The notes under the pieces were generated by a model. It was not told where the DNA came from and searched no databases. It saw only the letters and a list, made by a program, of their open reading frames with translations. Made by a program: the position numbers and the translations under genes. Shown here in pieces: positions 13,723-62,766 of a DNA stretch of 64,000 nt (position 1 is the first letter of the stretch; each line of letters opens with the position of its first letter). The stretch comes from Chiloscyllium plagiosum (lineage: Eukaryota), in contig NC_057753.1 in the NCBI RefSeq assembly GCF_004010195.1, forward strand, positions 7,312,130 to 7,376,129, read 5' to 3'.

Positions 13723-13852
13723 AATCCTGAAGAAGGGCTCATGCCCGAAACGTCAATTCTCCTGCTCCTTGGATGCTGCCTGACCTGCTGCGCTTTTCCG
13801 GCAACACATTTTTAGCTCTGATCTCCAGCACCTGCAGTCCTCACTTTCTCCT
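13723..13852 (+). mobile_element. Penelope-like terminal fragment, family 1, beginning with a minimal hammerhead motif
   Basis: CTGAAGA-A-GGGC-TCAT-GCCC-GAAA-CG-TC at 13727-13754, then the family terminal sequence. Flanked by a 'tgtaat' duplication. Confidence 0.8.
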
Positions 13853-14445
13853 GTAATTCAGTTTAACCAACCTGAGTGTTTAATGTAGGATTTGTACGAT
13901 TAATTGCTCCTGATGCTAGACACGGAACGAAACGTGTGGGTTGCTGACAGAATGGTAACAAAACTCATATGTAATTCCCAGGGTATGCGCAGAAATAATT
14001 ATTTTCCTGTGTTTTGAACGTGTAGAGGTGTACATTACCTTTAAGAGAAAGTGAGGAAGAGAGCAAGGACTGACTGAAAGCAGAGTGTCCAGAACAAGGT
14101 AAAAATGTAACACTTGGATGAAACACATAGGACATCTCTCTCGCAGACCACTGTGAAAGTTCAGCCATTCAGAAGGTTAAAGTCAGAAATCAGAAGGTTA
14201 AAGTCAGAAATCGATAGATTTCTAGATTTTCAGTGTTTTGAAAGATGTGCGGATGGTGCAGGAAAATTGTATTAAACTAAATAATCTCCCATGATCTAGT
14301 CAAATGGCATAGTGATCTTAAAGGGCTGAATGACGTGCTCATCTCCCTTTATTTCCTTACAAATAGGGAAAGGTTGCCGGATAATCACCAAAAGGACAGC
14401 TTTACAAGACAAGGTAATATTTTCTAGATTGAATATGGGAAGGTG

Positions 14446-14749
14446 TAGATTAGATTACTTGCAGTGTGGAAACAGGCCATTCGGCCCAACAAGTCCACAC
14501 CACCCCACTAAAGCGCAACCCACCCATAACCCTACATTTACCCCTTACCTAACACTACAGGCAATTTAGCATGGCCAATTCACCTGACCTGCACAGGTTT
14601 GGACTGTGGGAGGAAACCGGAGCACACGGAGGAAACCCACGCAGACACAGGGAGAATGTGCAAACTCCACACAGTCAGTCGCCTTAGGCAGGAATTGAAC
14701 CTGGCGCTGTGAGGCAGCAGTGCTAACCACTGTGCCACCGTGCTGCCCA
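14446..14749 (-). mobile_element. HE1-type tRNA-derived SINE, near full length
   Basis: Minus strand gives an A-box head 'ggcacggtggcacagtggttagc', a B-box 'ggttcaattcc', the V-domain 'tgtgtggagtttgcacattctccc' and a (TCTAA)n tail. Confidence 0.9.
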
Positions 14750-16139
14750 CGGTGGAGAACCTTGATGATGTGGATATAGCAATTGGTCAGACGCTTACCC
14801 AGTTCGGTGTGATAATCTTGGGGATACATTTGAGCAATTTTCGGATCAATTTTCTGATATTTTGTTGAGACAGAACCAATACCCAACAGGAAGGTCCTTT
14901 CGCGCATGTGCCTTGCACATTCCAGAGAAGGCACATTTCTCCCATGAGTAACGCTGATGTCTGCACCATTGCACTGTTGCAAATATTGCGACCATCAAAA
15001 CTTGTCGGCACACAGTTGAAAGCGTGGCGACGTCACCGCACCCTCTGGGCTGTGGCACCAGTTTCACGTTCTCTTCCTCCAAAGAGAATCTGAAATATTT
15101 GCAAATGCAAGTTCCCACTGATGTTACTCTGAAAAACAAAGTGAAATTCTTTCAGTGGCGAGTTTACTTCAACTTCGTCTACAAGTTCGAGTCCTTAAGC
15201 TGGGCTCTACAAATAAACAGTGATCCTCCTACAGTGCAAAAATATGCAGGCCAGGTGAATTGTCCATTTAACATCGGCCCATAATGTGCAGGTCAGGCGG
15301 GTTGCATTTACTAATGTAAATGCATTGTTGCCACGTAATTGGTCTTTACAGCCAGCGAAAATGCCAACCTGAATTCCTGCCACATTAGAAATGAAAGTGA
15401 GAAAACGGTTAAGAAAAAATAAACTTCAAAGAATTTTATTACACCAAAAGGCGTAGGTTCACCCATTTACCTATTGAATAAAAGACGGGCCGTCGCTCTA
15501 CATAAAAAGCATGTCAGAATTGCTAAAATAAAAATGGGTGAGATATGCATTTCCACTTTGTGGTCTGGACTTTTGATTTTCGAATTTACATTTTCTTGTG
15601 CATTTCTTAACTCATCTTTTGTCTGCATACCTGTGAATAAGTTAATATGTGTTTCTAACGTTTTAAAGGGATTAAATGTAAGCTGCATAATCGTACATTA
15701 GTTGTCATTCGTTATGTGCCATCAGTTCAAAAATGAGTTTGTTTACAATAAATGGTTATTTCCCATTAGAAAAATGCATAGTTGCGGGAATGGGTTTGGA
15801 TGGGACTTAATTCAGAGGATTGGTACAGACTCATGGCCTCAATGGCTTAAGAGATTCCATGATCACTTGATCATATAGTCGCATTTTCTTAATGCCCAGA
15901 AGTCACTAGTTTCGTTCGTTCCATTTATGGGTTGTCATGTGCCCATTTTCTTCTACTTTAAATCAATTTCACAAGGTATTCGATGGTGAGGATTCGCAGT
16001 CAGCAAACTTGAACAAAATGCCAAATCATGATTATGCAGGAATCGACCAACTTATCGTCACCAGAACATCATTGATATTATGGAAGGAATGGCAAGAGAC
16101 TGTACATGTGTTCGGCACGATCGATTTGTTCTTTTTAAA

Positions 16140-16420
16140 TTTATTGGATATGACGTCACTGGCTAGGCTAGCATTCTTTGGCCACCCATCTTTCTTCTCA
16201 AGAGTTAGCCACATTACTGCGAGTCTTGAGTCACGTGTAGGCCTTAACAGGAAAGAGTGTTCTCTAAAGGGCATTAGTGAACCAGATGGATATTTCCAGC
16301 ACTCGATAATTCGAGAGTTTTATTGATTTCAAATCCAATCTACCACAGTGGAATTCAAACCTCTGTCCCCTGCGTGTACTACAGTGAGCAGCAGTCCCTA
16401 TTTATAATCTGGTAACAATA
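16140..16420 (-). mobile_element. Deu-domain SINE (SacSINE1-like), decayed
   Basis: 'agttagccacattactgcgagtcttgagtcacgtgtaggcc...ggcattagtgaaccagatgg' resembles the reverse-complemented Deu domain, from recall. Confidence 0.5.
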
Positions 16421-16659
16421 GTGCCGTTGACGGTGTTATAGAACAGCAGTCTCTGTCGAGATACTATGCTCCAACAGTCCCTGCGTATATTACAGAAGAC
16501 AAGTCTCTGTGAGTATATTGCGCCACTAGATTATAAATCCAGTGTTAGTATCACTGGGCCATCGCAGCCCCGTGTGGCTACAGCCGATCGTCTGGCCTGT
16601 CTGAACACAATTGCCGTCATGGCAAGAAGAAGCTGTGCAAATGTGAGAGTTGCAGGAAG

Positions 16660-17234: not shown

Positions 17235-18797
17235 TGTAGATCTAGTGATGGAATTTAGCTGTTACCACATCCAGAACTGGTCCCTGTCCTGCAGGTTCTG
17301 ATGCTTTTAATGTTAATCAACTCCAGACCGGTTAAAGATGTTAATATTGCAGGTGTTAAATAAAGCTTAATTAAAAAATTGAAGTGTTGTAAGACATTTT
17401 AATATCGGAGACAAGTTTCCTACTTTTGAATGGCTACCCTTTCCTATTTTCTTCACGCTCACCTCCAAAGACGAGTGCAAGGAAAATAATGACCTTCATT
17501 GTCACTAATATTGATACAATCTGATCAACTCCTCTCCTGTTACCCTTCCTTCTACTATTTCACTGCCTCTTATGTTGCCCCGTGGCGAGCACTGAACGTG
17601 CACCTCTCTCAACTTTCCCTCACAGTTTTTTTCCCATTCGTCCCTTAATGAGCTCATCTCACTTCCTCCTCCATTGGCTGTCATCCCAAAAAATGTTAGA
17701 CAACTGAAATTCTATCTACGTACTGCATTGATTAATGTTTCTGTCCGTTTTGTGGTAAATTGGTCGTGTTTACATTCGGACCCCAGCATCCCTGCAAGTC
17801 ATGGTCACGTTTTAAACTTGTCTTTCCCGTCAGACACCCTGCAATGCATTAGTTCCTACCAAATGCTGACAATTACATTAATATTTCCGATCAAAAATAC
17901 ATTAAGTCAATACAAAGTCTTTACATCAGCCCACTCACTGTCTCGATAAACCCCATTAAACAAATGCCAGTATGACCACAAACCTATCTGAGTGACATTT
18001 CGACAATGATCTGCAGTAAACCAGAGATCGTGAAGAAGTGAGGTTGACAGGGTCATTGTGATCTCAGTCAGTACCGGGGGTCACATTATCACTGCATCTG
18101 ATTGTATCAAACTATACACAATATTTATCTAGGCAGTTGTTCAATACAGGATTCCTGGCTTTGTGGATAGAGCACTGAGCTTGTTCACATGAGGCTGCAA
18201 CTACAATGTTTCTATGAAATGGTTCATATTCCTGCTTCAGTCAACACCAAATGGAGCGATTGACATTTATGGTGAAGTAATATTAACATGGTCCCAATTC
18301 CTCTAAAGGTCTGGGCTGATACGTTTGTGTTTGCAAATCTCGTTTCCCCTTCCAAAAGTTTCACGAAGACTATTCAGATGGACAAGAAGCAGCTGACGTG
18401 AGCACTGTTCTAGTCTGCCGGGGAGAACGAAGTCAGACACAAACTGCAGTGTAACTGAGAAACAATAGGGGAGTGACACGGATGGAGAAGCAGCGGATGC
18501 TCCCCTCCTCTGCTATGATCAAGGTTGCATTACATGATGTATAGAACCTTTAAACATGACCGACTTTTGAAGGTGATGTGTCTCCCGCAGCTGCCTCAGA
18601 TCCAGTTCTGAAGAAGGGTCACTAGTGAAGTAACGTTGACTCTGGGCTAAAGAGCTTATTTCAGTGCTGTAGAATCTGATGACATGACCATCCTGCCGGA
18701 GAAGTTTGTCTCTGGTTAACATACACGCAAATTTAAAAAAAAATTCAGAAGTTGTAAATAATGCTATTGCGGAAAGGTGGAAATGTGGCTGGCGTAT

Positions 18798-20569: not shown

Positions 20570-21063
20570 TAGAATCCCTACAGTGTGGAAACAGGCCAAT
20601 CAGCCCAACAAGTCCACACTGATCCTCCGAAATAGCAACCCACAAAGACCCATTCTCCTCCCTTGTTAGTTGACAAGTACCCCTGACCAAAATACCGAAC
20701 CCACACACCCCAAACACTATGGGCAATTTAGTAGGTCAATTCACCTAACCTGGGGAAAGTGAGGACTGCAGATGCTGGAGATCAGAGCTGAAAAATGTGT
20801 TGCTGGAAAAGCGCAGCAGGTCAGGCAGCATCCAGGGAACAGGAGAATCGACGTTTTAGGCATAAGTCCTGAAGAAGGGTTTATGCCCGAAACGTCGATT
20901 CTCCTGCTCCTTGGATGCTGCCTTACCTGCTGCGCTTTTCCAGCAACACATTTTTCAGTAATTCACCTAACCTGCACATTTTCGGACTAAGGAAGGAAAC
21001 TGGAGCAGACCCACGCAGAAATGGGGAGCACCATGAGGTGACCACTGAGCCAAAGTGCCACCC
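20570..21063 (-). mobile_element. HE1-type SINE interrupted by a palindromic PLE insertion
   Basis: SINE tail at ~20570 and head at ~21060, split at the duplicated 'aattcacctaacctg'. Confidence 0.75.
20753..20959. mobile_element. Fold-back palindromic Penelope-like insertion, family 1, with hammerhead motif
   Basis: Inverted arms around 20866. CTGAAGA-A-GGGT-TTAT-GCCC-GAAA-CG-TC at 20869-20896. 15-bp TSD aattcacctaacctg (20738-20752 / 20960-20974). Confidence 0.85.
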
Positions 21064-21213
21064 ATGTCCAGGTTTTTGCCACTCCAGATTGCTCTATTTG
21101 GCTGGCAGCAGCCGTGATTGAATATTTAGTGGGAATTTGCTGTCAGAGCCTGAAGACTAATGCTGCCACGAGCAGATTACATTGCTGGCCATAAGAATAA
21201 TTTGTTTACTGAG

Positions 21214-23558
21214 TTGGAGATGCCGGTGTTTAACTGGGGTGTACAAAGTTAAAAATCACGCAACACCAGATTATAGTTCAACAGGTTTATTTGGAAGTGC
21301 CACAATGGTTAGATTGATTCTAATATTTTTTTTTTTTAAAATCGATTTACAGAATCTTACATGGATTTGTGCAGATTTTGAGCAAAGTAAAATGTAATTC
21401 TGCAAGGGCAAATGCATCCCGCAAACTTATAAGTGTATATGTGCATGTGAGTGTGAGTGTGGGGAGGCGTTGGGGGGTGTTATTATGTCTGTCTGTGAGA
21501 GGGTTCGTGTATGTGTATGAATGTGAGTGTAAAGGGGTTTAGGTCTGCGAGAGGTGGTGTGAGGCGTTGTATTTGTGAGTGTATGAGAGAAGGTCTGTGT
21601 GTGTATGCCTGTTTGTGTTTCTGTGTGTGCGCATCTGTCTGTCTGTGTGTAGATCTGTCTGTGTGTGTGTATACTGCAATAGGGTCACCTGTAGTGTGAC
21701 ATGAACCCAAGGTCCCGTTTGAGGCCATTCTCATAGTTACTGAACTTGACTATCAGCCTCTGCTCAGCCACTTTTCGGTGTTGTCTGCCCCGAACTCCGC
21801 CTTGGAGGACAGTCACCCGAAGTTCCATGGTTGAATGTCCCAGACTGCTGAAGTATTCTCTGACTGAGAGGGACCACTCCAGTCTGAAATGTCCATTCAT
21901 TGATTGCCGTAACCTCTGTTTAATCTCTCCAATGCACCATGCTTCAGGGAATCCTTGCCTGCAGCATATGAGATAAACAATGTTGGCTTAGTCGTATGAG
22001 TACCTGCTATGTTCATGGTGGTAGGAGTCCCCACGCATAATGGTGTTATCCATGTCGGCATTCTGACACTTGCTGCAGCATCTACTGTGACATGGGTGTA
22101 TGATATTGACCTGAAAGCGAGCAGTTTGCTACTAACAATGATCTGTTTGAGGTTTGGTGGCTGTTAAAGATGAGACGTGGAGATGTGGGAAAGGTCTTGG
22201 CGAGATGCTCATCCTCATTGATAACGTGTTGCAGGCTGTGATTAACATAGCGTAGGTTTTTGGCTCCTGGAAAATACTGGACAATGAAGGGTACCCTGTC
22301 GGTTGCAGCTCTCTCTCCTGAGGGTTCATTACAGTTCATCGTTGTGGCACGTCGGAACTGGCAATCGATGACTTGAACATCGTACCCCGTTCTTATGAGG
22401 GCATCACTGAATACTTCCGAGTCAGGGCACAACCCTTAAACAGATCATTGTTCATAGCAAACTGCCCAGCTTTCAGGATAATATCATACAACAATATCAC
22501 GGTAGACGCTGCAAGACGTGTCAGAATGTCGACACGGATGCCACCATTACGCGTGGAGGCACCGTCCACCATGTACGTGGCAGGTACTCATGTGACTCAG
22601 CCAACATTGTCTCTCTCATTCGCTGCAGGCAAGGATGCCAAGAGGCATGGTACAATGGCGAGATCAAACACAGGTTACTGCAACAGATGAATGGACACCA
22701 CAGAACAATCAACAGACAGGAGTGTTCCCTCCTAGTCGGAGAACACTTCAGCAGTCTGGGACATTCGATCTCGGAACTTCGGGTGACCGTCCTCCAAGTC
22801 AGACTTCGGGACAGACAACACCGAAAAGTGGCCGAGCAGAGGCTGATAGCTACGTTCAGTAACCATGGGGATAGCCTCAACCGGGACCTTGGGTTCATGT
22901 CACACTACAGGTGACCCTATTGCACTATACACACACACACACACTCAGACCCTCTCTCATGCATTCACACATACACTCCCACACAAACCCTCTTCCAGAC
23001 GTAAACCTCTTTACACACACACACAAACACATACACACCCTCTGACAGACACTCATAATTCCTCCCCCAAACACACACCCACATGCTCACATACACATAT
23101 GGGGTAAATTTGTACTGGCAGAATTACTTTCACTTTACTCAAAAATTTCATGAATCTATGTAAGACTCTGTAAATTCGTTTTTAGATTAGAATCAGACTG
23201 ACCATTGTGGCAGAAACAGACTCTGAGTGAGTTAACACGTTAAATACCTTTTCTGGGCCGACATGACACTAATTGTTAAAGTGCACGTGCGAATGTACCT
23301 TAAAAAGAAGTTTTGTGATTTACATATGAAAGAACTGAAACCATCAAGATCATTCTTAAAGATGGGAGATTTAGCAAACAATCCGGTATTTTTCAATATA
23401 TAATTTCAGTTACATCACACCATAAACTTTTGCTATAAAATCTGTCTTAGAGTCTTATTCCCAACAATCACCTGATGAAGGAGCAGCACACCGAAAGCAA
23501 GTGTTTCCAAACAAACCTGCTGGACTATAACCTGGTGTTGTGTGATTTTTACTTTGAC
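21214..23558. mobile_element. Penelope-like retroelement, family 2, inverted-duplicated, with GIY-YIG endonuclease C-terminus on both arms
   Basis: Minus 21685-22432 and plus ~22430-22914 encode the RT-linker and endonuclease end ('EHFSSLGHS...LRVTVLQ...RKVAEQRLIATF...LNRDLGFMSHY'). Each arm has a CA-rich UTR and the family-2 terminal repeat. Candidate TSD tactgag (21207-21213 / 23559-23565). Confidence 0.85.
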
Positions 23559-24187: not shown

Positions 24188-24941
24188 ACATAGAACATAG
24201 AACATAGAAGAATACAGCGCAGTACAGGCCCTTCGGCCCTCGATGTTGCGCCGATCCAGCCCACCTAAACCTACACTAGCCCACTATCCTCCATATGCAT
24301 ATCCAATGCCCGCTTAAATGCCCATAATGAGGGAGAGTCCACCACTGCTACTGGCAGGGCATTCCATGAACTCACGACTCGCTGAGTAAAGAACCTACCC
24401 CTAACATCTGTCCTATACCAACTCCCCCTTAATTTAAAGCTATGCCCCCTTGTAATAACTGACTCCATACGTGGAAAAAGGTTCTCACGGTCAACCCTAT
24501 CTAAACCCCTAATCATCTTATACACCTCTATCAAGTCACCCCTAAACCTTCTTTTCTCCAATGAAAACAACCCCAAGTGCCTCAGCCTCTCCTCATACGA
24601 TCTTTCTACCATACCAAGCAACATCCTGGTAAACCTCCTCTGCACCCATTCCAGTGCCTCCACATCCTTCCTATAGTATGGAGACCAAAACTGCACACAA
24701 TACTCCAGATGCGGCAGCACCAGAGTCTTATACAACTGCAACATGACCTCAGTACTCCAGAACTCAATTCCTCTACCAATAAAAGCCAGTACGCCATATG
24801 CCTTCCTCACCGCACTATTTACCTGGGTGGCAACTTTCAGAGATCTGTGTACATGGACACCAAGATCCCTCTGCTCATCCACAATACCAAGTATCCGACC
24901 ATTAGCCCAGTACCCCATCTTTTTGTTACTCTTACCAAAGT
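24188..24941 (-). mobile_element. Young 5'-truncated CR1 LINE with an open RT C-terminal frame
   Basis: Uninterrupted 'HFGKSNK...EQRDLGVHV...YKTLVLPHLEYCVQFWSP...RGDLIEVYK...FFTQRVV..WNALP' to the stop at 24271, then 3' UTR and (AGAACAT)n tail. Confidence 0.92.
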
Positions 24942-25170
24942 GAAATCTGAGTTCATCCCTTGTGGTTAGAGGGTTCCTAGGCGGAAGATGAGGCACTCTT
25001 CCTCCAGCTATCGTGTTGCTATGGTCTGGCGATGGAGGAGTCCAAGGACCTGCATGTCCTTGGTGGAGTGGGAGGGGGAGTTGAAGTGTTGGGCTACGGG
25101 GTGGTTGGGTTGGTTGTTCCGGGTGTCCCAGAGGTGTTCTCTGAAACGTTCCGCAAGTAGGCAGCCTGTC
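24942..25170 (-). mobile_element. Penelope-like endonuclease fragment
   Basis: Minus strand encodes 'PVAQHFNSPSH...EEECLIFRLGTL*PQGMNSDF', typical of the PLE GIY-YIG C-terminus. Runs into the gap. Confidence 0.7.
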
Positions 25171-26151
25171 NNNNNNNNNNNNNNNNNNNNNNNNNNNNNN
25201 NNNNNNNNNNNNNNNNNNNNNNNNNNNNNNNNNNNNNNNNNNNNNNNNNNNNNNNNNNNNNNNNNNNNNNNNNNNNNNNNNNNNNNNNNNNNNNNNNNNN
25301 NNNNNNNNNNNNNNNNNNNNNNNNNNNNNNNNNNNNNNNNNNNNNNNNNNNNNNNNNNNNNNNNNNNNNNNNNNNNNNNNNNNNNNNNNNNNNNNNNNNN
25401 NNNNNNNNNNNNNNNNNNNNNNNNNNNNNNNNNNNNNNNNNNNNNNNNNNNNNNNNNNNNNNNNNNNNNNNNNNNNNNNNNNNNNNNNNNNNNNNNNNNN
25501 NNNNNNNNNNNNNNNNNNNNNNNNNNNNNNNNNNNNNNNNNNNNNNNNNNNNNNNNNNNNNNNNNNNNNNNNNNNNNNNNNNNNNNNNNNNNNNNNNNNN
25601 NNNNNNNNNNNNNNNNNNNNNNNNNNNNNNNNNNNNNNNNNNNNNNNNNNNNNNNNNNNNNNNNNNNNNNNNNNNNNNNNNNNNNNNNNNNNNNNNNNNN
25701 NNNNNNNNNNNNNNNNNNNNNNNNNNNNNNNNNNNNNNNNNNNNNNNNNNNNNNNNNNNNNNNNNNNNNNNNNNNNNNNNNNNNNNNNNNNNNNNNNNNN
25801 NNNNNNNNNNNNNNNNNNNNNNNNNNNNNNNNNNNNNNNNNNNNNNNNNNNNNNNNNNNNNNNNNNNNNNNNNNNNNNNNNNNNNNNNNNNNNNNNNNNN
25901 NNNNNNNNNNNNNNNNNNNNNNNNNNNNNNNNNNNNNNNNNNNNNNNNNNNNNNNNNNNNNNNNNNNNNNNNNNNNNNNNNNNNNNNNNNNNNNNNNNNN
26001 NNNNNNNNNNNNNNNNNNNNNNNNNNNNNNNNNNNNNNNNNNNNNNNNNNNNNNNNNNNNNNNNNNNNNNNNNNNNNNNNNNNNNNNNNNNNNNNNNNNN
26101 NNNNNNNNNNNNNNNNNNNNNNNNNNNNNNNNNNNNNNNNNNNNNNNNNNN
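25171..26151. other. Assembly gap (981 N)
   Basis: Run of N. Confidence 1.
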
Positions 26152-28929
26152 TAGAATTATAATCAACATTATGTCCAATGTCACCAACACGAAACAGGCA
26201 GTGCCATAGTGGTGTGTTTTCTGGAGTAAGTGGCTGGGACAAGGACCCAGTAACAGAGACTCAGAGACATATAGCATCTAACAGGAATGGATTCATTACA
26301 CGTCGTTTGGATGTCCGGTTCAGAATATATTTTATGTGAATGGTCTCAGTAACTAGAGATGTTAGTGTCACAAATAGATTGGAGAAGCCTGTTTAGAATG
26401 CCCCAATTGGCAGAAGTGTTAGCCTAAGTATGATTCTTGTGGATATGTAAGATAAGAAATATTGAAGTCTCCTCAATTTCTGCATCTGGTTGAACCGTTT
26501 GTTTTTTTTTTTATCATCTCCGCTCAGTCTAACATCCAAAATGTACTATTTCACATTTTGCAGTTTTTCACTTTCCCGTTCACCTATCAGTCCATTTCCC
26601 CAGATTGTCTTTATTGTGCTAAAGATCACAATCCTATTCATTGTTTACAACATCACCAAATTTCGTCTCATCAACAAAATTCGAAGTAATGTCACGTAAA
26701 CTGAAGTAAAGTTCATCGATGAGTTATCAAATGGTTTACCTCCTTCTTGAACACAATGGCTGCAGATATCACAGCTTTAAGTACCCCATAATGATTCTTC
26801 AAGTAGGTATATCGAGTTTCATAATGCATATCTATGTATCTGTGTTTGTGTGCACTTCTAAATTTGTTTGTGACTCTGCGTGAGCATGTGTCTGTGTAAG
26901 TCACTGTGTACATGTCACATCACCAGTATGTCTGAAAGCATTGACCTGCAAAACTCAAATTGGAGTTGAATAAATCCTTCATTAGATCAAATGTTCGGTA
27001 AAATGTAGAGGTGTGGATCCTTTCAGCTTTTGTTTTCAATTACCCGTCCTTGGCATGGCGACTGGCTCGACTCTGGCCAATTGGCAGAAGTGTTAGCAGA
27101 AGTATGGTTCTTGGGGCTATATAAATGTTCATAAAACATTCCTTTTACCACATCAGGCCATTCATAGATATCTTTCAGTGCAGTCTGTATTTTCTGAAGG
27201 CCAATTACAATTGTGTTAAACGCAAATTAAGTCGTCAATATATGCATCAATAAATCCCTTTCTCATCCGAACCCTAGCAAACCATTTATCTGGGATTTTT
27301 TTCCTGAGATCACCAGAAACGCGTGAGGGCGGGAAGAAGAAGGATAAACACTGCACAGAAAGGACATATTCAGGTGTAATTGAAGTGCCAGGTAATGAAA
27401 TGATAGCTGCAGAATGGAACTGTTACACGATTATTTATTTAACAATTCGTGTGATTATAGAAAATGTTGATGACGTAGTGGGTCATTGGATTAGTAATCA
27501 TCTAGGGATGTCTGTTTGAAAGGCAGCTGGTAACATTTAAATTCAGCAACAACAAAAATAAGTCGAAAGTTAGCATTCTGCCTTGCCTGGTCTGGCCTTT
27601 CTATTATTCCAGATCCATAACAGAGTTCTGACTGCCATCTGGGAAATAAATGCTAAAAGGCCAATGATACCCACATCCCAGGAACGATTTTGAAAAGCCA
27701 AATTGATAAAATAAAGGTGATGTTTAAAAGTAGAACCCGTGAATCCTTGTAAGTAGTATCTGTTATTTGAAAAATTACTTTGTGCCATGAATTGCTTTAC
27801 CTCAGAGTGTTGTTTTTACTTAGCCTGGTTGAATTGAGAACTCAGACACACAGCAAAATTATGCACTTTAACTGTACAAACAGATGACGGAGCAAGCCAC
27901 GTGGTTTACCAAATCGCCACAGAAATGTCCAATACGAATGAAACTGGATGCACTATATGGCATAATATTGAGCAAAAGAAATCGTAGAGGAACACACAGC
28001 TCTGTTGGCTCTGCAACGTTCTCCACACTGAAAGCTGAGAGATTATGGCACAATTTCGAAAGCTGTCACAAAACGAGTCAGCAACAACTTAACATAAACG
28101 TGTGCACAGAATCATACGTTACAGGCAATGTCCAGTTTCTAGAATTATAATCAACATTATGTCCAATGTCACCAACACGAAACAGGCAGTGCCATAGTGG
28201 TGTGTTTTCTGGAGTAAGTGGCTGGGACAAGGACCCAGTAACAGAGACTCAGAGACATATAGCATCTAACAGGAATGGATTCATTACACGTCGTTTGGAT
28301 GTCCGGTTCAGAATATATTTTATGTGAATGGTCTCAGTAACTAGAGATGTTAGTGTCACAAATAGATTGGAGAAGCCTGTTTAGAATGCCCCAATTGGCA
28401 GAAGTGTTAGCCTAAGTATGATTCTTGTGGATATGTAAGATAAGAAATATTGAAGTCTCCTCAATTTCTGCATCTGGTTGAACCGTTTGTTTTTTTTTTT
28501 ATCATCTCCGCTCAGTCTAACATCCAAAATGTACTATTTCACATTTTGCAGTTTTTCACTTTCCCGTTCACCTATCAGTCCATTTCCCCAGATTGTCTTT
28601 ATTGTGCTAAAGATCACAATCCTATTCATTGTTTACAACATCACCAAATTTCGTCTCATCAACAAAATTCCAAGTAATGTCACGTAAACTGAAGTAAAGT
28701 TCATCGATGAGTTATCAAATGGTTTACCTCCTTCTTGAACACAATGGTTGCAGATATCACAGCTTTAAGTACCCCATAATGATTCTTCAAGTAGGTATCT
28801 CGAGTTTCATAATGCATATCTATGTATCTGTGTTTGTGTGCACTTCTAAATTTGTTTGTGACTCTGCATGAGCATGTGTCTGTGTAAGTCACTGTGTACA
28901 TGTCACATCACCAGTATGTCTGAAAGCAT
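26152..28929. repeat. Direct duplication, 26152-26941 vs 28140-28929 (offset 1988 bp)
   Basis: About 790 bp nearly identical, with four substitutions seen. Duplicated ORFs appear in the track (26462/28450, 26713/28701). Confidence 0.95.
27480..27690 (+). mobile_element. Deu-domain SINE (SacSINE1-like), decayed
   Basis: 'ctgccttgcctggtctggcct...ctccagatccataac...ataaatgct...ccacatcccagga'. Confidence 0.5.
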
Positions 28930-32746: not shown

Positions 32747-33053
32747 CCCTGCAGTGAGTAAGGAAAAAATGGGTGCAACCCCCTGCAATGAGTGAGGTCA
32801 TAAAGGGCCTGAGTCCTGCAGTCAGTGAGATCACAATGTGCTTGACCCCTGCAGTGAGTGAGGTCACAATGTGCTTGACCTCTGCAGTCTGTGGTCATAA
32901 TGTGCTTGAGCCCTGCACTGAGTGAGGTCACAATGTGCCTGACCCCTGCAGTCTGAGGTCACAATGGGCTTGATCTCTGCAGTGAGTGAGGATGGGCCTG
33001 ACCCCTGCAATCTGAGGTCACAATGTGCCTGACCCATACAGTGAGTGAGGTCA
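32747..33053. repeat. Minisatellite, about 9 units of 31/33 bp
   Basis: Consensus CCCTGCAG-T(GAG/C)TG-AGGTCACAATGTGCYTGAC, followed by TC/CA microsatellite. Confidence 0.9.
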
Positions 33054-33806: not shown

Positions 33807-34388
33807 GTATGTCTCTGTATTTAACTGTAATCCTAATATTGTCATTTACCATCCTGATGCATTGGTGTTCATGGCCTTGGTAGGTTTATAGATCAATTTG
33901 TACATCTTCAAACCATGCTTCATCATATTTCAGATCTTCTGTAAGAAAGGGCCATATAATGCTATTATTCTGTTCATTGGCTGTCCCTGGATACGATCTT
34001 TATTTCATTCCGCTTTATGTAATTATTAGACCTTGCAAATTGTTCCCAGTTAACATCTTAGCATGTGTTCTCTTTCATTATTTCTTCAAATGTTTGTAAT
34101 TTTCCAAACATTAATAGAGGCCTTAATTCTCAAAAATACCTGCCTATTTTTAGAAATAAAACCCTCATCTTAATATGACAATGTATGCAATAACACTTCT
34201 ATAATGTGTAATGGTGCTTATGTTCTTTCCCTCATATCATTCATGGAATAGCCACATCCCTTTGAGGGATTGACAAATTTGTCTAAAGAGGCAATTTTGC
34301 AAATTCTGCTGTAACGAAATGTTTACAAAGTCTTATGAAGGAATAAATGCCTTCTGTTTGCATTCTTGTTTATTTCCCTTTCTTACAG

Positions 34389-35287
34389 TGAACCTAATGA
34401 CGATTGTAATTCTGTGTCATGGAAAATGTGGACTTTCGAAATGTGTCACGTGCTATCTGGTAGGCATGGCTGCGGCTGATCTCCTGGTCATTATCATCGA
34501 CCTTATATTGAGACATTTTCCAATTCTTTTTTGGAAACAGTTTCATTTTGTGTATTCCATCCATGTTTGTAATATCCATGCTATCATTCTTTATGCATGT
34601 ACAGACTGCTCTGTCTGGTTCACCGTCACTTTCACTGTTGATAGGTTTGTGGCTATTTGTTGCCAGAAACTGAAAAGGAAATATTGCACCAGCATAATCG
34701 CAACTTCAGTCCTTTCAACAGTAACAGTACTGAGTTTTTTAAAGAACATTTTTTGGTATTATATGTTGACAGCTAAGTATTGGCTTATTAACTTCCCTTG
34801 GTTTTGTGAGGTAAGAAGTGGTGTCATGGAATCTAAGGTTTGGGCAACAGTGGAATTTCTTCATTATATCTTTACACCATGTGTTCCATTTGTTCTGATA
34901 CTGCTGCTCAACAATTTAACCATCAGACATGTTTTAGTTGGCAGCAGAGCCCGTAAGAGGCTTCGGGATCACAGCTGTGCGAACAGTTCCAAAGACTCAG
35001 AGATGGAGAGTCGAAGGAAGTCGGTCATTTTACTGTTTGTTATTTCCGCTAATTTCATATTGTTCTGGTCAATATTTATGTTGTACTCTGTATGGTGGCG
35101 TATGTGGGTTTTTGGCTATGAATCTGTTTGGTTTCCTGAATTTTTACTGGAATTGGGCTTCATGCTGCAGCTCCTGAGTTGCTGCACTAATACTTGCATT
35201 TATGCTGTCACGCAGAAAAAGTTCAGGGAGCAATTGAAGAATGTAATGATATATCCCATTAGAGTACTTGGAAAGTTTAATAAGTGA
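34389..35287 (+). CDS. GPR139/GPR142-like orphan class A GPCR gene 2, coding exon 2 (spliced CDS 996 nt, 331 aa)
   Basis: Polypyrimidine tract plus 'ttacAG' acceptor at 34387-34388. Motifs 'GKCGLSKC', 'MAAADLL', 'TVDRFVAICC', 'PWFC', 'NTCIYAV..KKFREQL'. Stop TGA at 35285-35287. Confidence 0.93.
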
Positions 35288-36725: not shown

Positions 36726-37345
36726 CTCAAGATTTGGAGATGTCGGTGTTGGACTGGGGTGTACAAAGTTAAAAATCACAAAACACCAGGTTATAGTCCA
36801 ACAGGTTTAATTGGAAGCACACTAGTTTTCGGAGCGTCGCTCCTTCATCAGGTGGTATTGGAGGGCTCCATCCTAACACACAGAATTTATACCAAAAATT
36901 TAAAGTGTAATGTGACCGAAGTTATACATGGAAAAATACCTTGATTGTCTGTTAAGCCTTTCATCTGTTAGAATACAGTGATAGTTTCACTTCTTTCATG
37001 TGTAAATCACAAAACATTTTTTTAAAGTTGCATTCTCGGGTTAGCTGTTAACAATGGTGATAGCGAGATAATATGTCGAGACATATTGTCTAGATATGTC
37101 TAGACAAAAAGGTTTTTGTGATTTACACATGAAAGAAGTGAAACTATCACTTTATTATAACAGATGAAAGGCTTAACAATCAATTTTTCAATGTATAATT
37201 TCAGTTACATCACACTGTAAATTTTTGCTATAAATTCTGTGTTACGATCGAGCCCTCCACTATCACCTGATGAAGGAGCGTCGCTCCGAAAGCTAGTGCT
37301 TCCAATTAAACCTGTTGGACTATAACCTGGTGTTGTGTGATTTTT
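36726..37345. mobile_element. Fold-back palindromic Penelope-like insertion, family 2 (~620 bp)
   Basis: Inverted arms centred ~37090. 11-bp TSD aactatgattt (36715-36725 / 37346-37356). Hammerhead motifs on both strands. Confidence 0.88.
37264..37298 (+). ncRNA. Minimal type I hammerhead ribozyme motif (PLE family 2)
   Basis: CAC-CTGATGA-A-GGAGC-GTC-GCTCC-GAAA-GC-TA-GTG: intact core, 5-bp helix II, palindromic AGCT helix III, 3-bp helix I. Confidence 0.75.
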
Positions 37346-44576: not shown

Positions 44577-44629
44577 GTAGGAACAAGAATCTCTTTTATG
44601 TCTCAGATAAATAAATGACCCAGAGAACC

Positions 44630-48661: not shown

Positions 48662-48883
48662 CTTTCATGATTTGGAGATGCCGGTGTTGGGCTGGGGTAT
48701 ACAAAGTTAAAAATCACACAACACCAGGTTATAGTCCAACAGGTTTAATTGGAAGCACTAGCTTTCGGAGCGACGCTCCTTCATCAAGTGATTGTGCAAT
48801 CACCTGATGAAGGAGCGTCGCTCCGAAAGCTAGTGCTTCCAATTAAACCTGTTGGACTATAACCTGGTGTTGTGGATTTTTAA
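48662..48883. mobile_element. Fold-back palindromic Penelope-like insertion, family 2 (~220 bp)
   Basis: Near-perfect inverted arms centred on 'gtgattgtgcaatcac' (48788-48803). TSD tctcattac (48653-48661 / 48884-48892). Confidence 0.88.
48801..48835 (+). ncRNA. Minimal hammerhead ribozyme motif (PLE family 2)
   Basis: Identical to 37264-37298. The mirror copy on the minus strand has C3->T. Confidence 0.75.
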
Positions 48884-49410: not shown

Positions 49411-49616
49411 GAGAAAGTGAGGACTGCAGATGCTGGAGACCAGAATTGGAAAGTGTGGTGCTGGAAAGGTGAAGCAGGCCAGGCAGCATCCGAGGAGCAG
49501 GAGAATCGACGTTTCAGGCATATGTCCTTCGAAGGACTTATGCCCGAAACGTCGATTCTCCTGCTCCTCGGATGCTGCCTGGCCTGCTTCGCCTTTGCAG
49601 CACCACACTTTTCAAC
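49411..49616. mobile_element. Fold-back palindromic Penelope-like insertion, family 1 (~205 bp)
   Basis: Inverted arms centred on 'ccttcgaagg' (49526-49535). 12-bp TSD tcaggaaaaaag (49399-49410 / 49617-49628). Confidence 0.9.
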
Positions 49617-49859: not shown

Positions 49860-52440
49860 GTGAAACATGGCGCCAAATTAAACTATTCCTATCTGCCTGC
49901 CTTGGTCCATATCTCTCAATTTATTGCATATTCATGTGCTTTTTCCAAAGGTCCCTTAAATATTTCTATCACGTCTGCTCCTCCACTACACCTTGCAGCG
50001 TTCTCTTGTGTAAAAACGTGCCCCTCACAACTTCGTTGAACTTCATCCCTCTTACATTAACTGCTTGACCCTAACTTTAGACATTTTATTTCCTCTAGGA
50101 AATGGATGTTGACTTCTTAAGCTGCCTATGCATTTCATAGCTTCATGGACTTCTCCCAAGTCTCCCTTCAGCCTCTGCCACTCGAGACAAAACAATCTAA
50201 TATATTCCAGCCCCTCCTTGTAGCTCATACTGGTTCATCTAGGTCACATCCTGGTAAACCTCTTCTGCACTATCTCTGAAACCTCCACTATTCCAAGGTG
50301 ATTCTTGTGCTCAATTCTCTAACGAGTAAAAGGGAAGCATACTGTAAGCCTTCGTCACCAAATCATCTGTGTATCTGGCCACTTTTGTGGAGGTGAACCC
50401 CAAGATCCCTCTGTCCATCAATGTTGTTCAGTTACCTTCCATTAACTGCATACGTTTTCTTAATAATTAATCTCACAAAGTGCAGCAGGCAACACTTAAT
50501 CGGATTATCTCCATCTGCCATTTCTCCACCTATATCTGTGACCGATCGATATTCCACAGTATCCATTGACAACCTTCTACACTATCTACAACTTCATAGA
50601 TCTCTGAACAAAACAACAAGGTTCTGAGGCAGGGTCACCAGACCCGAAACATTAACTTTGACTTTTTTTCACAGCTGCTGCAAGGCTTGCTAGGCTTTTC
50701 CAGTAACTTGTGTCTTCCCCCCCACCCCCACCCCCACCCCCCACAGGGCTTTGTATATCTGCAAACATGCTAACAGATCCACACACATTCTCATCTAAGT
50801 CATATATGAAAACCACTAGTCACGGATTTCAAGCCGGAAGAACACCTTAAAACCATTACCCTCTGCCTTCTATGGTTAGGCCAATTCTGAATCACGCTGC
50901 CAGGGTACCTTGGATTTCATGCATAATAATCTTCTGGATGAGGCAACTGTGAGGGATATTGCTGAAAACCTTTCTCAGCTCCATGTAGACAATATCCACT
51001 ACTCTTCCCTCATCAATCATCTTTGTAACATTCTCAAAGTATTCAATCAACTTCGTAAGATATGACTAGCCTATCACAAAGCTTAAGTCTAATGAGGGCA
51101 TTTTGTTCCCCTAAATGCACATAAATCCTTTCACTCAGAATCATCTCAAATAGCTTTGCATCCATGAATGTGAAACTCACCAGTCTATGATATCCTGGAT
51201 TGTTCCTCTTTCCGTTCTTCAACACACAACATTAGCTACTCGCCAGTCCTGCAGGACTTCTTCAGTGGCTGCCAAGGATGCAAAGACCTTTGTCAAGACC
51301 CCAACAAAGTCCTGTCTTGCCTCTCAACAGCCTGGTTTAGGTATGATCAGGCGCTGAGGTCCTATCTACCTTAATGCGCTTCAAGAGCTTCTTTCTTGAC
51401 ATCAAAATGCCCCAGCATATTAGTCCACGCCATGCAAATCTTGTTATCCCCCTGTATCGTTGTCTTGGGTGAACACCAATGCAACATACTCCTTTAGGAT
51501 CTCGTCCACATCCTCTGCCTGCAACCAGATTTTCTCTCCTTTACCCTGGAGTGGCCCTACCTTCTCCCTAGTTGTCATTTATTTTTAATGTTTATGTGGA
51601 ACGCCCTGGACTTCTCTTGAACCCTACTTGCCAAACTCGGTTCACTGTCCCATCTTGCTCTGCTAATTCTCTGCTTAATTTTTTGCCTGCTGTCTTTATA
51701 TTCCTCCTCGGCTCTGTCAGATTTTAGCTTCCTCAACCTAACATTGCTTTTTTTCCCCCCTTTTGACTACATTCAAATCTTCCACCGTAACCCAAGTGCA
51801 CCTTGCATTTTCATCCTCCTCCTTCCTCCATACTGGAACATGTTGGTCCTGAACTCTGATCAAGCAACTTCCACCTGTCAAATGTGGACTTGCCAGAAAA
51901 CACACCCTCCCAGTTAACACTTCCTCGCTCCTGCCTGAGACTGATGTAATTTGCCCTCCCCCAATTTATAACCTTCCAAAAGGTCCTGCTTTATCGTTAT
52001 TTGTAGCTATTGAAAACTTAATGAGTTGCGACCAGTTTCCAAACTGCTTTCCAACTGAAAGGTCAGTCACCTGACCAGGCTCATTGGCCAATTCAGTTTC
52101 CCAAAGTTCCCATTACGTCCTTGTATGCACTTGATTAAGCCCCGGAAATTAATCCATCTCTGGTTCTTTTTTTAAAAAAAAGAAAACATCCATCACTTTC
52201 TCTTTTGTAATGTGGACTGTTTTCAAGACATCAAAATTTACTCGTCGAGTTCAATTGCCTCCATTTCTTTCTTCAAAGTAAATGCAGATGCGAACTATTC
52301 ACTTAGTATCTCTCCCCTCTCCTTTCCTTCAACGGATAAGCAATATTGTTGATTTTAGAGGTCCCTATTCGCTCTCAATTGTTCTTTTTCTCTTAATGCA
52401 CATACAGAATCGTTTTGGAATATTCTTAAACTTCCGCATT
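49860..52440 (-). mobile_element. Old CR1 LINE ORF2 remnants
   Basis: 'KNGKRNNPGYHRLVSFT..KLFEMIL..RIYVHL' (51043-51225) plus RT and 3' UTR-like sequence toward 49860. A family-3 PLE end is nested at ~50623-50710. Confidence 0.7.
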
Positions 52441-58600: not shown

Positions 58601-58726
58601 TCATTTGTGAACTCGCTGGTGATGTCGAAGATACATGATCGAATGAATAGCTTCCCACACAGAGCAGGGGCATGGTCTCTGCACAGACTGAAGACGCTGG
58701 TGTCCAGATGATTCACTGATCTTAGT
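58601..58726 (-). pseudogene. C2H2 zinc-finger gene remnant (last finger)
   Basis: Minus strand 'HQRLQSVQRPCPCSV[fs]GKLFIRS..[fs]HQRVHK*', preceded by an acceptor-like 'tacttttctgtcAG'. Confidence 0.55.
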
Positions 58727-58902
58727 CTGACAGAAAAGTATTTGTGTGGTCTTCTGTCAGTGTGCACATCACAATAGGATACACCAGAACTTTAATATGA
58801 CTTAAGTCAGAGAGCGAGTGTGTATTCTGGTTTTTATTCTGATCTACCTGTGCCATCTTGATTACCTCTGATTTTAATTGCTTGTCTTTATTTCAGTTGA
58901 TA

Positions 58903-59575: not shown

Positions 59576-60280
59576 ATTTTCCTCTTGGGGACCCTGCAGC
59601 CATCGGGATTCAATGCTGGATACAAGAATTGTACTGCTTGATCACGTTCTCCCATGATCTTACCCGAGCTAGCACATAGCAGGCCTTGACATCACATAGT
59701 TTGCGGCCACAAAGAACCTATTCTCAACCACGAACAGTCCCCAATTGTAGCTATCCATTCTCCCAGGCTGGCCTTGACCCATTCCTTTGCCTGTCCAACT
59801 GGTTTTCTACTGCTCTGGGCTCCATCTCCACCGATCATTTAAATGCTCAACGAAGTCTATTTTTAATTTATTGCTTCACAAATATATAAAACTGGTACCA
59901 CTAAAACAAGGTGATCAGTGTCATATAATAAGTATAGTTAGGGTGTGCACTGCTTGGATGTGTTCTGGATGCAATTGAGGTATTCAATAAAATGTTAGAT
60001 TATTATTAGAATCAAACCAATGTTCAGGGTCACACGACGAAGGCAGGATCATGGCACAGAATGATGATGATGCTGATTCAGAGAGCCAGTGCAGACATAA
60101 TAGACAAAACCGCCTCCTTCGCCACTGTAACAATTCTAATGGTGATTGTTTTTGTTGAGTTAAAATTTCTCATGGGTCCTTAATCATCACGGGGTGAATA
60201 ATTTGCATCTCATCAACTAGCAGCATTATGGGAGCATACTCACCACACAAACTGCAGTGATTCAGGAAAGACAAACATCA

Positions 60281-60460
60281 TCGGGCATAAGCCCTTCTTC
60301 AGGAATCTTCGATGTTTCGGGCATAAGCCCTTCTTCAGGAAGGCTTGTGCCCGAAACGTCGATTCTCCTGCTCCTTGGATGCTGCCTGACCTGCTGCGCT
60401 TTTCCAGCAACACATTTTTCAGCTCTGATCTCCAGCATCTGCAGTCCTCACTTTCTCCAA
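60281..60460. mobile_element. Penelope-like family-1 end with inverted tandem hammerhead copies
   Basis: Two minus-strand 'cctgaagaagggcttatgcccga' units precede a plus-strand terminal repeat. Flanks caaacatcatcg / caagcatcatcg. Confidence 0.8.
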
Positions 60461-60787
60461 GTCAAGCATCATCGTCTTGATCGCCACATGGGATTGACAA
60501 TATACAGGAGATATCCGTGGAGACAGAAAACAAGGAATCAGTGAACATTTCATGCAGTATGAAATCATTTACATGGATATGTTGCATTTATTATGATGGT
60601 CAATATATGCTCAAAAGCAAAATGGAGCTCATTTCCAGTGCAGCAAAAGCCTTCCTGACTCTGAACGTTGCTGCGGGTATAGGACTCGGCAACATGGTCC
60701 CCGGATGGACAGCAGTGAAATCATCATTTTGGAAAACGCACGAAAGTAACACTAGTTAAACAGAGTCACACAGTTGACCTGGCCAGT

Positions 60788-60916
60788 CCTGATGAAGGGC
60801 TTATCCTGAAACGCCGAATCCCCGGCTCCTCGGATGCCACCTGACCTGCTGTGCTGTTCCGGTACCACTCTAATCTAGACTCTGACCTCCAGCATCTGCA
60901 GTGCTCACTTTCTCCT
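60788..60916 (+). mobile_element. Penelope-like terminal fragment, family 1
   Basis: 'cctgatgaagggcttatcctgaaacgccgaatc...ctcactttctcc'. Flanks cctggccag / cctggacag. Confidence 0.75.
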
Positions 60917-61149
60917 GGACAGGAGGGGTTCACTGAGGTGCGCATTGAAACTGAGCAATGGATGGATTGAATGCACACGCATTCATTTTGCCCCTGCAAA
61001 CACAGTTTGCACAGAGCTGCCCCCCTGCAGCCTGTCCCTAACAAAGGTGGTGGACGGTCTGGAAACCTCCCAGCGCCTTTGAGACCGTGCAGACCAGGAG
61101 CAGCATCTTCTCACTCGGGACCCCACAGCCCTCCGCCTTCTTTGACTTT

Positions 61150-61920
61150 ATTGGATGGTTGAAGATCGCGCGGTCACGAGCAGGAGACCACGATTGGTTG
61201 GTCCTTGAACCAATGGGAGGGAGTGGGAGCTGGCCCTCCAACCAATGGGGATGAAGAGTGGGCGGGAGGACTGAATGTACGTGTCTGGTCCTCCAACCAA
61301 TAGGAATGAACAGTGGGCGGGGCTGGAGGAACAAATTACACTCCTGGTCCTCCAGCCAATGGGAATGAATAGCGGGCGGGGCTGGAGGACCAAATAACAC
61401 TACGGGTCCTCCAGCCAATAGGAATGAATAGCGGGCGGGGCTGGAGGACCGTGGGCGGGAGGACTGAATGTACGTGTCTGGTCCTCCAACCAATAGGAAT
61501 GAACAGTGGGCGGGGCTGGAGGAACAAATTACACTACTGGTCCTCCAGCCAATAGGAATGAATAGCGGGCGGGGCTGGAGGACCGAGGCTGTGCGACTGG
61601 CCCTCCAACCAATGGGAAGGAACAGCTGGCGGGGCCGGAGGACAGTCATTGGTCCAGGGCCGTGGGCGGGCTCGGAGGACCGCGGAGGGTCCTCCGACCA
61701 ATGCGCGTGACGAGTGGGCGGGCACGTGACCGTCAGCCGTGAAGGCCGCGCGGTTGGTCGGGGACCCCTGAAGGAGACGGTAAATGGGGCGGGGCCGGGC
61801 CGGGGCCGGGCCGGGGGGTGGGGATACAGACACAGACACAGCCGCGGGACCGGGATGAAGGGCCGCTTGCAGCAAATGGCGGGGGGCCTCAGCGGTGCCC
61901 TGGTTACCAGGACCATCCTC
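61150..61920 (+). promoter_or_regulatory. CpG-rich promoter with a tandem CCAAT/GC-box array
   Basis: CCAAT at 61210, 61242, 61297, 61356, 61415, 61490, 61549, 61609 and 61698; ATTGG at 61150, 61193 and 61648. Many GGGCGG boxes, CACGTGAC E-box at ~61723, donor-like ACG|GTAAAT at 61779, and CpG retention. Confidence 0.75.
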
Positions 61921-61944
61921 CGGGGATAACAATCTCACACACAC

Positions 61945-62766
61945 ACACACACCAGGTTTAATCGGAAGCACTAACTTACTGAGGGACGCTCCTTCATCAG
62001 GGGGATCCTAACACAGAATTTACAGCAAAACTTTACAGTGTCAGGTCACTGAAATTATACATTGAAACATTGATTGTCTGTTAAGCCTTTCATCCGTTAG
62101 AATACAGTGAGAGTTTCACTTCATTCATGTGTAAATCACAAAACCTTTTATTTAAAGTTGCATTCTCGGGTTAGCTGTTAACAATGGTGATAGATGGGCA
62201 GTATGTTGAAGGTGTTAGCCCCCTGTGTTCTCTGTCTATGCCATGAATCTAACCTAAAAAGTGAGATAACAGAGTTTTACATAAATTCATGCAGTTTTTG
62301 AGCTCAGAGTCCTACATGAATGCATGCAGAGTTACATTGCACTTTGCTCAAAAACTGCATGAATTTATGTAAAACTCTGTTATCTCACTTTTTAGATTAG
62401 AATCAATCTAAACATCATGGCATACTGCCTAGCTATCACCATTGTTAACAGCTAAGCTGAGAATGCAACTTTTTAAATAAAGGGTTTTGTGATTTACACA
62501 TGCAAGAACTGAAACTATCACTGTATTCTAACAGATGAAAGGCTTAACAGTCAATCAATTTTTCAATGTATAATTTCAGTTACATTACACTGTAAATCTT
62601 TGTGATAACTTCTGTGTGTTAGGATGGAGCCCTCCACTACCATCTGATGAAGGAGTGACGCTCCAAAAGCTAGTGTGCTTCCAATTAAACCTGTTGGACT
62701 ATAACCTGGTGTTGTGTGATTTTTAACTTTGTACATCCCAGTCCAACACCGGCGTCTCCAAATCAT
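61945..62766. mobile_element. Fold-back palindromic Penelope-like insertion, family 2 (~820 bp)
   Basis: Inverted arms with a ~50-bp perfect inner stem around 62320. Hammerhead motif at 62644 with GAAA->AAAA. Confidence 0.85.

What the first reader, a model, noticed from the sequence alone, without database searches (positions are those of the whole stretch)
13723..62680. Recurrent minimal hammerhead ribozyme motifs from three Penelope-like families
Seen: family 2 CAC-CTGATGA-A-GGAGC-GTC-GCTCC-GAAA-GC-TA-GTG is intact at 37264 and 48801, with decayed copies at ~23472, ~36823 (minus), ~48757 (minus) and 62644. Family 1 CTGAAGA-A-GGGY-TYAT-GCCC-GAAA-CG-TC is at 13727 and 20869, with a variant at 60789. 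Family 3 CTGAGGN-A-GGGTC-ACCA-GACCC-GAAAC is at ~50624, with decayed copies at ~2183, ~12398 and ~18608. Helix II differs between families but stays paired (covariation) around a conserved core, and helix III is a 4-nt palindrome (AGCT or ACGT). Established: PLE terminal repeats carry minimal type I hammerheads thought to cleave as dimers via palindromic helix III. Inference: over a dozen potential self-cleaving RNA motifs lie in this 64 kb.
Basis: partly seen in the sequence, partly recalled or inferred. Interest (0 to 1): 0.72.

Follow-up and report, generated by a model that had tools for sequence, protein, structure and literature searches.

The report
Hammerhead-tipped Penelope stubs in shark-like genome
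The motifs are real small hammerhead (self-cutting RNA) sequences in the ends of Penelope-type jumping genes, a known kind; most copies here are broken stubs, likely copied from the uncut front end of the element's RNA, so they say more about how the element copies itself than about working ribozymes in this DNA.

Summary
Confirmed. All 13 listed motifs are at the stated places, and about 29 hammerhead-derived copies lie in the window. They are minimal type I hammerheads in the terminal repeats of three Neptune-type Penelope-like families, each linked to RT/GIY-YIG coding sequence elsewhere in the genome; this is a kind described in 2014. The core is conserved more than its flanks, and helix II and the 3-8 core pair covary. 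'Over a dozen potential ribozymes' overstates it: only three copies (20869, 37267, 48804) are intact, and each is one arm of an inverted repeat predicted to pair it shut.

Beyond the finding: copies' 5' ends pile up just upstream of the hammerhead at a TATA/initiator with an extra G, not at the cut site (56 versus 4 of 166). Head-to-head pairs carry one long and one short tail (74 of 83) inside 10-17-bp target duplications. Family 2 has a poly(A) signal, used in RNA reads, 10 nt after the cut site. Likely mechanism: run-off copying of capped, uncut RNA on both nicked strands. Cleavage itself is untested. The scan noted these same features before, in this and other shark-like genomes.

The parts
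13723..13852 (+). Family 1 solo stub: hammerhead core 13727-13754 (pair 1.1-2.1 broken) plus long tail
20753..20959 (.). Family 1 head-to-head insertion; intact hammerhead on + (C3 20869, predicted cut after 20896, short tail), truncated arm on - (long tail); 15-bp target duplication at 20738-20752 and 20960-20974
21207..23554 (.). Family 2 inverted insertion: long-tail arm on -, endonuclease fragments 21688-22116 (-) and 22423-22911 (+), decayed hammerhead at 23472 with short tail
36726..37345 (.). Family 2 head-to-head insertion; hammerhead 36851 (-, helix III palindrome broken, long tail) and intact hammerhead 37267-37295 (+, short tail); 11-bp target duplication
37229..37235 (+). TATA box of the family 2 terminal repeat, 38 nt before C3 (promoter role inferred)
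37305..37325 (+). Family 2 poly(A) signal (37305-37310) and poly(A) addition site (37322-37325); use shown for the family in RNA reads, not for this copy
48662..48883 (.). Family 2 palindromic insertion; intact hammerhead 48804 (+, short tail), C3-to-U copy at 48787 (-, long tail); about 9-bp matching flanks
49411..49616 (.). Family 1 palindromic insertion, both arms truncated inside the CUGA box; 12-bp target duplication
50620..50714 (+). Family 3 stub, core A9-to-C and helix III palindrome broken
60275..60458 (.).
60786..60874 (+). Older family 1 variant, decayed (helix II deletion, U16.1 lost)
61950..62766 (.). Family 2 inverted insertion, decayed hammerheads at 62000 (-) and 62644 (+, G12-to-A)
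2069..2286 (.). Family 3 palindromic insertion, both hammerheads decayed (2174 -, 2182 +)
12398..12440 (+). Strongly decayed family 3-like motif
18604..18645 (+). Decayed family 3 motif, helix II broken
24939..25169 (-). Family 1 GIY-YIG endonuclease fragment beside an assembly gap

Best explanation
These are minimal type I hammerhead motifs in the terminal repeats of three Neptune-type Penelope-like retrotransposon families, and most copies are short stubs likely made when the element's reverse transcriptase started 55-98 bases behind the ribozyme and ran off the capped 5' end of an uncut transcript that likely begins just in front of it. Shown: family identity, conservation, two 3' end points, 5' ends massed at the motif's front edge with an extra G, head-to-head pairs with one long and one short tail inside a target duplication. 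Inferred: the front edge is the transcription start; both nicked target strands are extended, one from each internal start site, and the two cDNAs are joined end to end. Inferred, weakest: in the source elements the ribozyme cuts slowly, as a protein-assisted dimer through its 4-nt palindrome, removing about 32-40 capped bases and so limiting the life of the RNA rather than making the template's end. Inserted stubs are mostly inert.
For: PLE coding sequence upstream of each family: family 2 RT (YIDD) + CxxC + GIY-YIG-like domain, hammerhead about 620-760 nt after the ORF; family 1 749-aa ORF with Pfam RVT_1 E=1.2e-8 and GIY-YIG E=2.9e-4, hammerhead 179 nt after it; family 3 endonuclease/RT fragments in 5 of 30 loci. 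Core versus flanks at non-CpG sites in copies chosen only on flanks: family 1 5/309 vs tail 128/1360, base-stratified OR 0.09, P=7e-10 (31 copies); family 2 9/331 vs 69/1522, OR 0.38, P=0.006 against upstream plus tail (34 copies). Helix II differs among families and stays paired; 4 copies carry the compensated U3-A8 core pair. 5' ends: 56 of 166 at -1..-12 from C3, 10 at -13..-60, 4 within 3 nt of the cut site; TATA(-like) and initiator-like words at that spot in all three families. Base before the family-1 start: G in 61 of the first 100 genome-wide non-reference matches, and 19 of 30 after removing joins to the other arm. 74 of 83 divergent pairs are long+short; 50 of 51 among pairs with a duplication of 10 bp or more; 0 of 1507 mismatched flank pairs reach 10 bp; 27 head-to-head, 9 tandem, 0 tail-to-tail neighbours. 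In vitro, the anole PLE protein cuts and extends both strands, starts at two internal sites, is predicted dimeric, and its hammerhead cuts only with protein and is not needed for insertion (PMC11167929, parts 1-2 of 4 read).
Against: No cleavage, transcription start or cap was measured. 44 of 166 5' ends lie inside the hammerhead and 33 far upstream, so run-off at one start is not the only route. Junctions mix 1-4-nt overlaps with 2-11-nt insertions, so the joining step is not defined. Genome-wide counts of family-1 copies starting near the cut site rise from 65 (-3) to 223 (-1, mostly one-base deletions), 302 (+1), 195 (+2), 351 (+4): no sharp peak, but a step that would fit a small cleaved fraction. 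The family-2 core-versus-tail difference alone is small (2.7% vs 4.5%). The D. virilis Penelope promoter is reported as TATA-less and internal (PMC2377424, passages). No full-length element with both repeats was recovered. The pair sample includes loci picked by hammerhead patterns; the unpicked subset gives 28 of 30.
Confidence: 0.6

Rival explanations
1. The ribozyme's job is to cut the element out of a longer transcript, giving the template its 5' end or a circular RNA for more-than-unit copying (model of Cervera and De la Pena 2014).
For: Catalytic core and NUH triplet conserved; 302 family-1 copies begin at the cut site, 4.6 times the -3 control; proposed in PMC4209133.
Against: Only 4 of 166 copies end at the cut site against 56 at the front edge; 7,308 versus 302 in genome-wide patterns; the +4 control is as high; 7 of 20 inspected cut-site starts were read by eye as joins to the partner arm and 4 of 20 as small indels. 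No piled read ends at the site, though these poly(A) libraries could hardly show them.
Confidence: 0.12
2. The hammerhead fold matters as a structure at the RNA's 5' end (protein binding, protection) and cutting is incidental.
For: Templates were mostly uncut; anole core mutants do not change insertion in vitro (PMC11167929); low in vitro rates for min-HHRs (PMC4209133); some family-1 copies lack U16.1.
Against: The catalytic positions, the compensated U3-A8 pair and a cleavable triplet (GUC, CUA, GUU) are kept across diverged families while N7 and loop II vary freely.
Confidence: 0.15
3. The inverted arms come from self-priming on an antisense template, with the one-sided tail made by endonuclease resolution, not from priming on both target strands.
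For: Proposed in PMC3846280 (passages) and, for the tail, PMC8557442 (passages); arms of a pair are often nearly identical; some junctions are palindromic.
Against: Both arms often end separately at the same predicted start, some with their own extra G and unrelated bases between them; the two tail ends match the two-start-site behaviour measured in vitro.
Confidence: 0.12
4. Many inserted copies work as ribozymes in host transcripts.
For: Family 2 ends are polyadenylated in RNA reads 27-30 nt after the cut site; about 245,000 descriptor matches extrapolated genome-wide.
Against: 3 of about 29 window copies intact, all in inverted repeats predicted to pair them shut; CpG decay of G12 after insertion; dimer or protein needed in the tested relatives.
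Confidence: 0.06

Closest known systems
Minimal type I hammerheads (min-HHR) of metazoan Penelope-like elements (Cervera and De la Pena 2014, PMC4209133; parts 1-2 of 4 read)
   Same: Position in the PLE terminal repeat, extra base between A9 and G10.1, G10.1-C11.1 pair, short helix I, palindromic 15.1-16.1 word, several families per genome, mostly solo or close opposite-strand copies, U3-A8 variant.
   Different: No cartilaginous fish named in the parts read or in the one searchable supplement (the other supplement could not be searched). Extrapolated number here (about 245,000, my descriptor) far exceeds their 4,000-9,000 for coelacanth and Xenopus (different descriptor). They report no poly(A) signal or start-site link in the parts read.
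Neptune-clade EN+ PLEs (definition in PMC8557442, passages)
   Same: RT, then CX2-5CxxC linker, then C-terminal GIY-YIG with CCHH; 5' truncation, inverted pLTR, 30-40-bp one-sided tail.
   Different: Clade assigned from the linker motif only; no tree with named references was built. The long+short rule is quantified here rather than described as optional.
Anole Poseidon element PAc (Frangieh et al. 2024, PMC11167929)
   Same: Two internal RT start points about 35 nt apart just behind the hammerhead; uncut RNA used as template.
   Different: PAc is Poseidon clade and its ORF starts in helix II; target duplications and head-to-head pairs were not discussed in the parts read.
Non-LTR retrozymes (bioRxiv 10.64898/2026.07.22.740005; part 1 of 5 and passages read)
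   Same: Type I hammerheads derived from PLE terminal repeats; one chondrichthyan sampled.
   Different: Retrozymes are tandem arrays; these are dispersed solo or inverted stubs, and no hammerhead tandem array was found by Tandem Repeats Finder.
Clec2 3' UTR hammerhead (as reviewed in PMC6765202, passage)
   Same: Hammerhead cut site upstream of a poly(A) signal, so cutting would remove the tail.
   Different: Clec2 is a conserved single-gene, full hammerhead with shown activity; family 2 is a minimal motif in a repeat, with no shown activity or conservation at host loci.

Membership tests
PLE minimal type I hammerhead | CUGANGA ... GAAA ... UH core in type I order | tested here: met
   intact in 3 window copies and in family majorities
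PLE minimal type I hammerhead | Paired, covarying helix II with G10.1-C11.1 and an extra base after A9 | tested here: met
PLE minimal type I hammerhead | No monomer helix III; palindromic 4-nt word | tested here: met
   AGCU and ACGU
PLE minimal type I hammerhead | Located in the terminal repeat of an RT + GIY-YIG element | tested here: met
PLE minimal type I hammerhead | Core conserved above flanks | tested here: met
   (strong in family 1, weaker in family 2; family 3 not tested)
PLE minimal type I hammerhead | Self-cleavage as dimer or with protein | not testable with these tools
   Indirect tests inconclusive
Neptune-clade EN+ PLE | CX2-5CxxC linker before a C-terminal GIY-YIG | tested here: met
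   read from translations
Neptune-clade EN+ PLE | RT phylogeny grouping with named Neptune elements | not tested
   no named reference sequences were available from a tool
EN+ PLE insertion structure | Inverted 5'-truncated repeat, one-sided 30-40-bp tail, target duplication | tested here: met
Non-LTR retrozyme | Tandem array with a hammerhead in each unit | tested here: not met
   only one imperfect 36-nt tandem pair at 60302/60338
Rfam canonical hammerhead families | Match to an Rfam hammerhead model | tested here: not met
   none at E<=5

The most novel reading that the evidence does not exclude
A dimeric Penelope protein holds two capped RNAs, primes one on each nicked strand from a different start site, and by the same pairing assembles the two-part hammerhead that decaps them; and the many family-2 ends that serve as poly(A) sites put that half-ribozyme 27-30 bases before the tail of host RNAs, so that host transcripts could be cut in trans whenever the element is expressed.
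Probability: 0.1. Interest if true: 0.7.

Novelty: new member of a known kind. Interest (0 to 1): 0.3.

Why it matters
The ribozymes themselves are expected. What the copies add is a testable picture for an open question, how Penelope-like elements make their head-to-head ends and what their hammerhead is for: templates appear capped and uncut, both target strands appear to be primed from different start sites, and cleavage would remove the cap rather than define the template. A genome with several hundred thousand copies gives the numbers that rotifer and fly data lacked. The family-2 poly(A) signal shows that these stubs can end transcripts.

Tried and rejected
Rfam scan: no hammerhead model hit; the microRNA hits at 48743-48848 and 49477-49585 are only the palindromic insertions, below gathering scores. 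DNA similarity search of the own genome returned nothing because common words are skipped; patterns were used instead. Pfam did not recognise the window's endonuclease fragment; longer copies were needed. The run search gave 'no RNA holder listed'; run X21 laid 0 reads (no test). None of four runs covered the unique flanks of 13560-13960, so the species of the RNA run is unresolved. One search used one wrong reference copy for family 1 and was redone. One search's conservation test chose copies by alignment through the core and was redone. A microhomology-only joining model was not supported. No arm-length bias was established (13 vs 26 of 44, medians 30 and 31). A sharp peak of copies starting at the cut site was sought and not found. 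No full-length element with both repeats was found in 20 + 8 fetched candidates, many broken by gaps. The Lunse et al. dimer paper was not held; it is known here only from a reference list. Literature searches for shark + Penelope + hammerhead ribozyme, Penelope + twin priming, Penelope + polyadenylation signal + hammerhead and Penelope-like + cap/untemplated G listed no paper on these points; subscription papers, Repbase and Dfam notes and bioRxiv supplements were not visible.
Full report
Observation. A strict minimal-hammerhead descriptor finds 5 window copies and none in 30 shuffles, and 46 distinct copies in 668,694 bases from 69 blindly placed 10-kb stretches against none in 5 shuffles; scaled to 3.56 Gb that is about 245,000. 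Exact patterns count 12,186 family-2, 7,308 and 769 family-1 (two 5' contexts) and 157 family-3 matches, with reversed controls at 0. Fuzzy and tail-anchored scans raise the window's tally to about 29 hammerhead-derived copies, but only 20869, 37267 and 48804 are intact. Rfam has no matching model. The genome looks like a shark's from its size and repeats; that is my inference from recalled repeat types, not a tool result.

What they belong to. Family 2 follows an ORF with a YIDD reverse transcriptase, a CxxC linker and a GIY-YIG-type domain by about 620-760 nt; the window's 22423-22911 fragment is such a domain, 561 nt before the motif at 23472. Family 1 follows a 749-aa ORF with Pfam RVT_1 and GIY-YIG hits (the latter just under the curated cut-off) by 179 nt. 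Family 3 has related endonuclease or RT fragments in 5 of 30 loci. The cysteine linker marks Neptune-type elements by the definition in PMC8557442 (passages). Locus L162 shows the full layout: inverted short arm, repeat, internally deleted body, repeat with long tail, 14-bp duplication (read by eye).

Is the ribozyme selected? In copies chosen only on sequence upstream and downstream of the motif, non-CpG core positions vary at 5/309 in family 1 (tail 128/1360; stratified OR 0.09, P=7e-10) and 9/331 in family 2 (tail 69/1522; OR 0.38, P=0.006 against both flanks), while N7 and loop II vary freely. Helix II differs among at least five lineages and stays paired; four copies carry the compensated U3-A8 pair. 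G12, which lies in a CpG, decays in 7 of 34 family-2 copies, so selection acted on source elements and not on inserted stubs. This matches the min-HHR description in PMC4209133 (parts 1-2 of 4 read).

3' ends and pairs. Copies end at two places about 35 nt apart in both families tested. Of 83 head-to-head pairs, 74 have one long and one short tail (28 of 30 in the window plus blind sample; 50 of 51 among pairs with a flank match of 10 bp or more); matches are 10-17 bp, and none of 1507 mismatched flank pairs reaches 10. Neighbours within 1.5 kb are head-to-head 27 times, tandem 9 times, never tail-to-tail. A one-sided tail is known as a frequent or optional feature (PMC3846280, PMC8557442; passages), and PMC11167929 ties it to two internal RT start sites and shows both target strands cut and extended. 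The simplest reading is that each nicked strand is primed from a different site; this is inference.

5' ends. Of 166 tail-anchored copies, 56 end 1-12 nt before C3, 44 inside the motif, 4 within 3 nt of the cut site, 19 in the tail, 10 at -13..-60 and 33 further up. All three families have a TATA or TATA-like word 30-40 nt upstream and an initiator-like word at the pile. The base in front of the family-1 start is G in 61 of the first 100 listed matches (counted by hand; P=1e-8 against one third) and in 19 of 30 after removing joins to the partner arm, as expected if a cap was copied (established for other retroelements; recalled). So the templates were mostly capped and uncut, and the hammerhead occupies the first 35-40 bases of the RNA. 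Genome-wide counts at positions -3, -1, +1, +2, +4 around the family-1 cut site are 65, 223, 302, 195 and 351. The patterns capture different fractions and include small indels, so this is inconclusive: no sharp peak, perhaps a step from a small cleaved fraction.

RNA. A raw poly(A) single-cell run (X20, organism B, about 2% read) laid 3,366 reads on 37100-37352, mostly in one orientation; 581 and 728 reads end in non-templated A runs after 37322 and 37325, 12-15 nt after an A(A/T)TAAA hexamer and before a GU-rich stretch. 29 of 36 family-2 tails keep the hexamer. These reads cross the cut site intact, but cut products would be too short to appear, so nothing follows about cleavage. The RT start points lie beyond this poly(A) site, so templates must be RNAs that passed it. 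Family 1 gave 2,186 reads on both strands with no piled ends. The run may be from a related species, the reads come from many copies, and a few loci may dominate.

The intact window copies. Each is the + arm of an inverted repeat, and folding across both arms pairs the whole motif with its antisense partner. The copy at 37267 keeps its own TATA box and could be transcribed without the partner. Monomers fold helix II and a weak helix I; the palindromic word is AGCU or ACGU and the triplets are CUA, GUC, GUU.

Verdict. This is a new member of a known kind. The mechanistic extras (start-site run-off, long+short pairing, poly(A) signal) were reached here from my own calls before the look-up, and earlier unreviewed notes of this scan report the same on other DNA. 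I found no paper stating them in four searches, within a library that lacks most subscription journals.

Noticed in passing
window 176-1135 (-) and 34274-35287 (+): Two single-exon rhodopsin-family GPCR ORFs (Pfam 7tm_1). The family-2 insertion at 36726-37345 lies about 1.5-2 kb after the second, but an AATAAA at 35556 comes first.
   Followed up: partly
L112:2083(-), L137:4178(-), L210:910(-), L260:670(-): A further lineage whose hammerhead has U3-A8 in place of C3-G8.
   Followed up: partly
L179:8929(-) and 9541(+): A further hammerhead family with a longer helix II and a U bulge, as an inverted pair.
   Followed up: no
G000 matches: More than half of the listed matches lack U16.1; two close pairs (C6 near 77.97 Mb, C7 near 18.97 Mb) share the loss in both copies, hinting that a catalytically dead RNA can be copied.
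   Followed up: partly
family 3 tail, e.g. L110, L115: The tail reads like a 3' splice site (branch point, pyrimidine run, CAG) directly followed by ATG (by eye).
   Followed up: no
window 26152-26451 and 28140-28439: Identical 300-nt direct repeat next to an assembly gap at about 25170-26150; possibly an assembly artefact.
   Followed up: no
window 32780-33053 and 61287-61643: 33-bp and 59-bp minisatellites; the second is GC-rich with repeated CCAAT and GC boxes, like a promoter region.
   Followed up: no
window 41274-41648 (+) and 6994-7545 (-): Integrase core fragment (Pfam rve) and a gypsy-like RT fragment; many CR1-like RT fragments and SINE-like repeats elsewhere.
   Followed up: no
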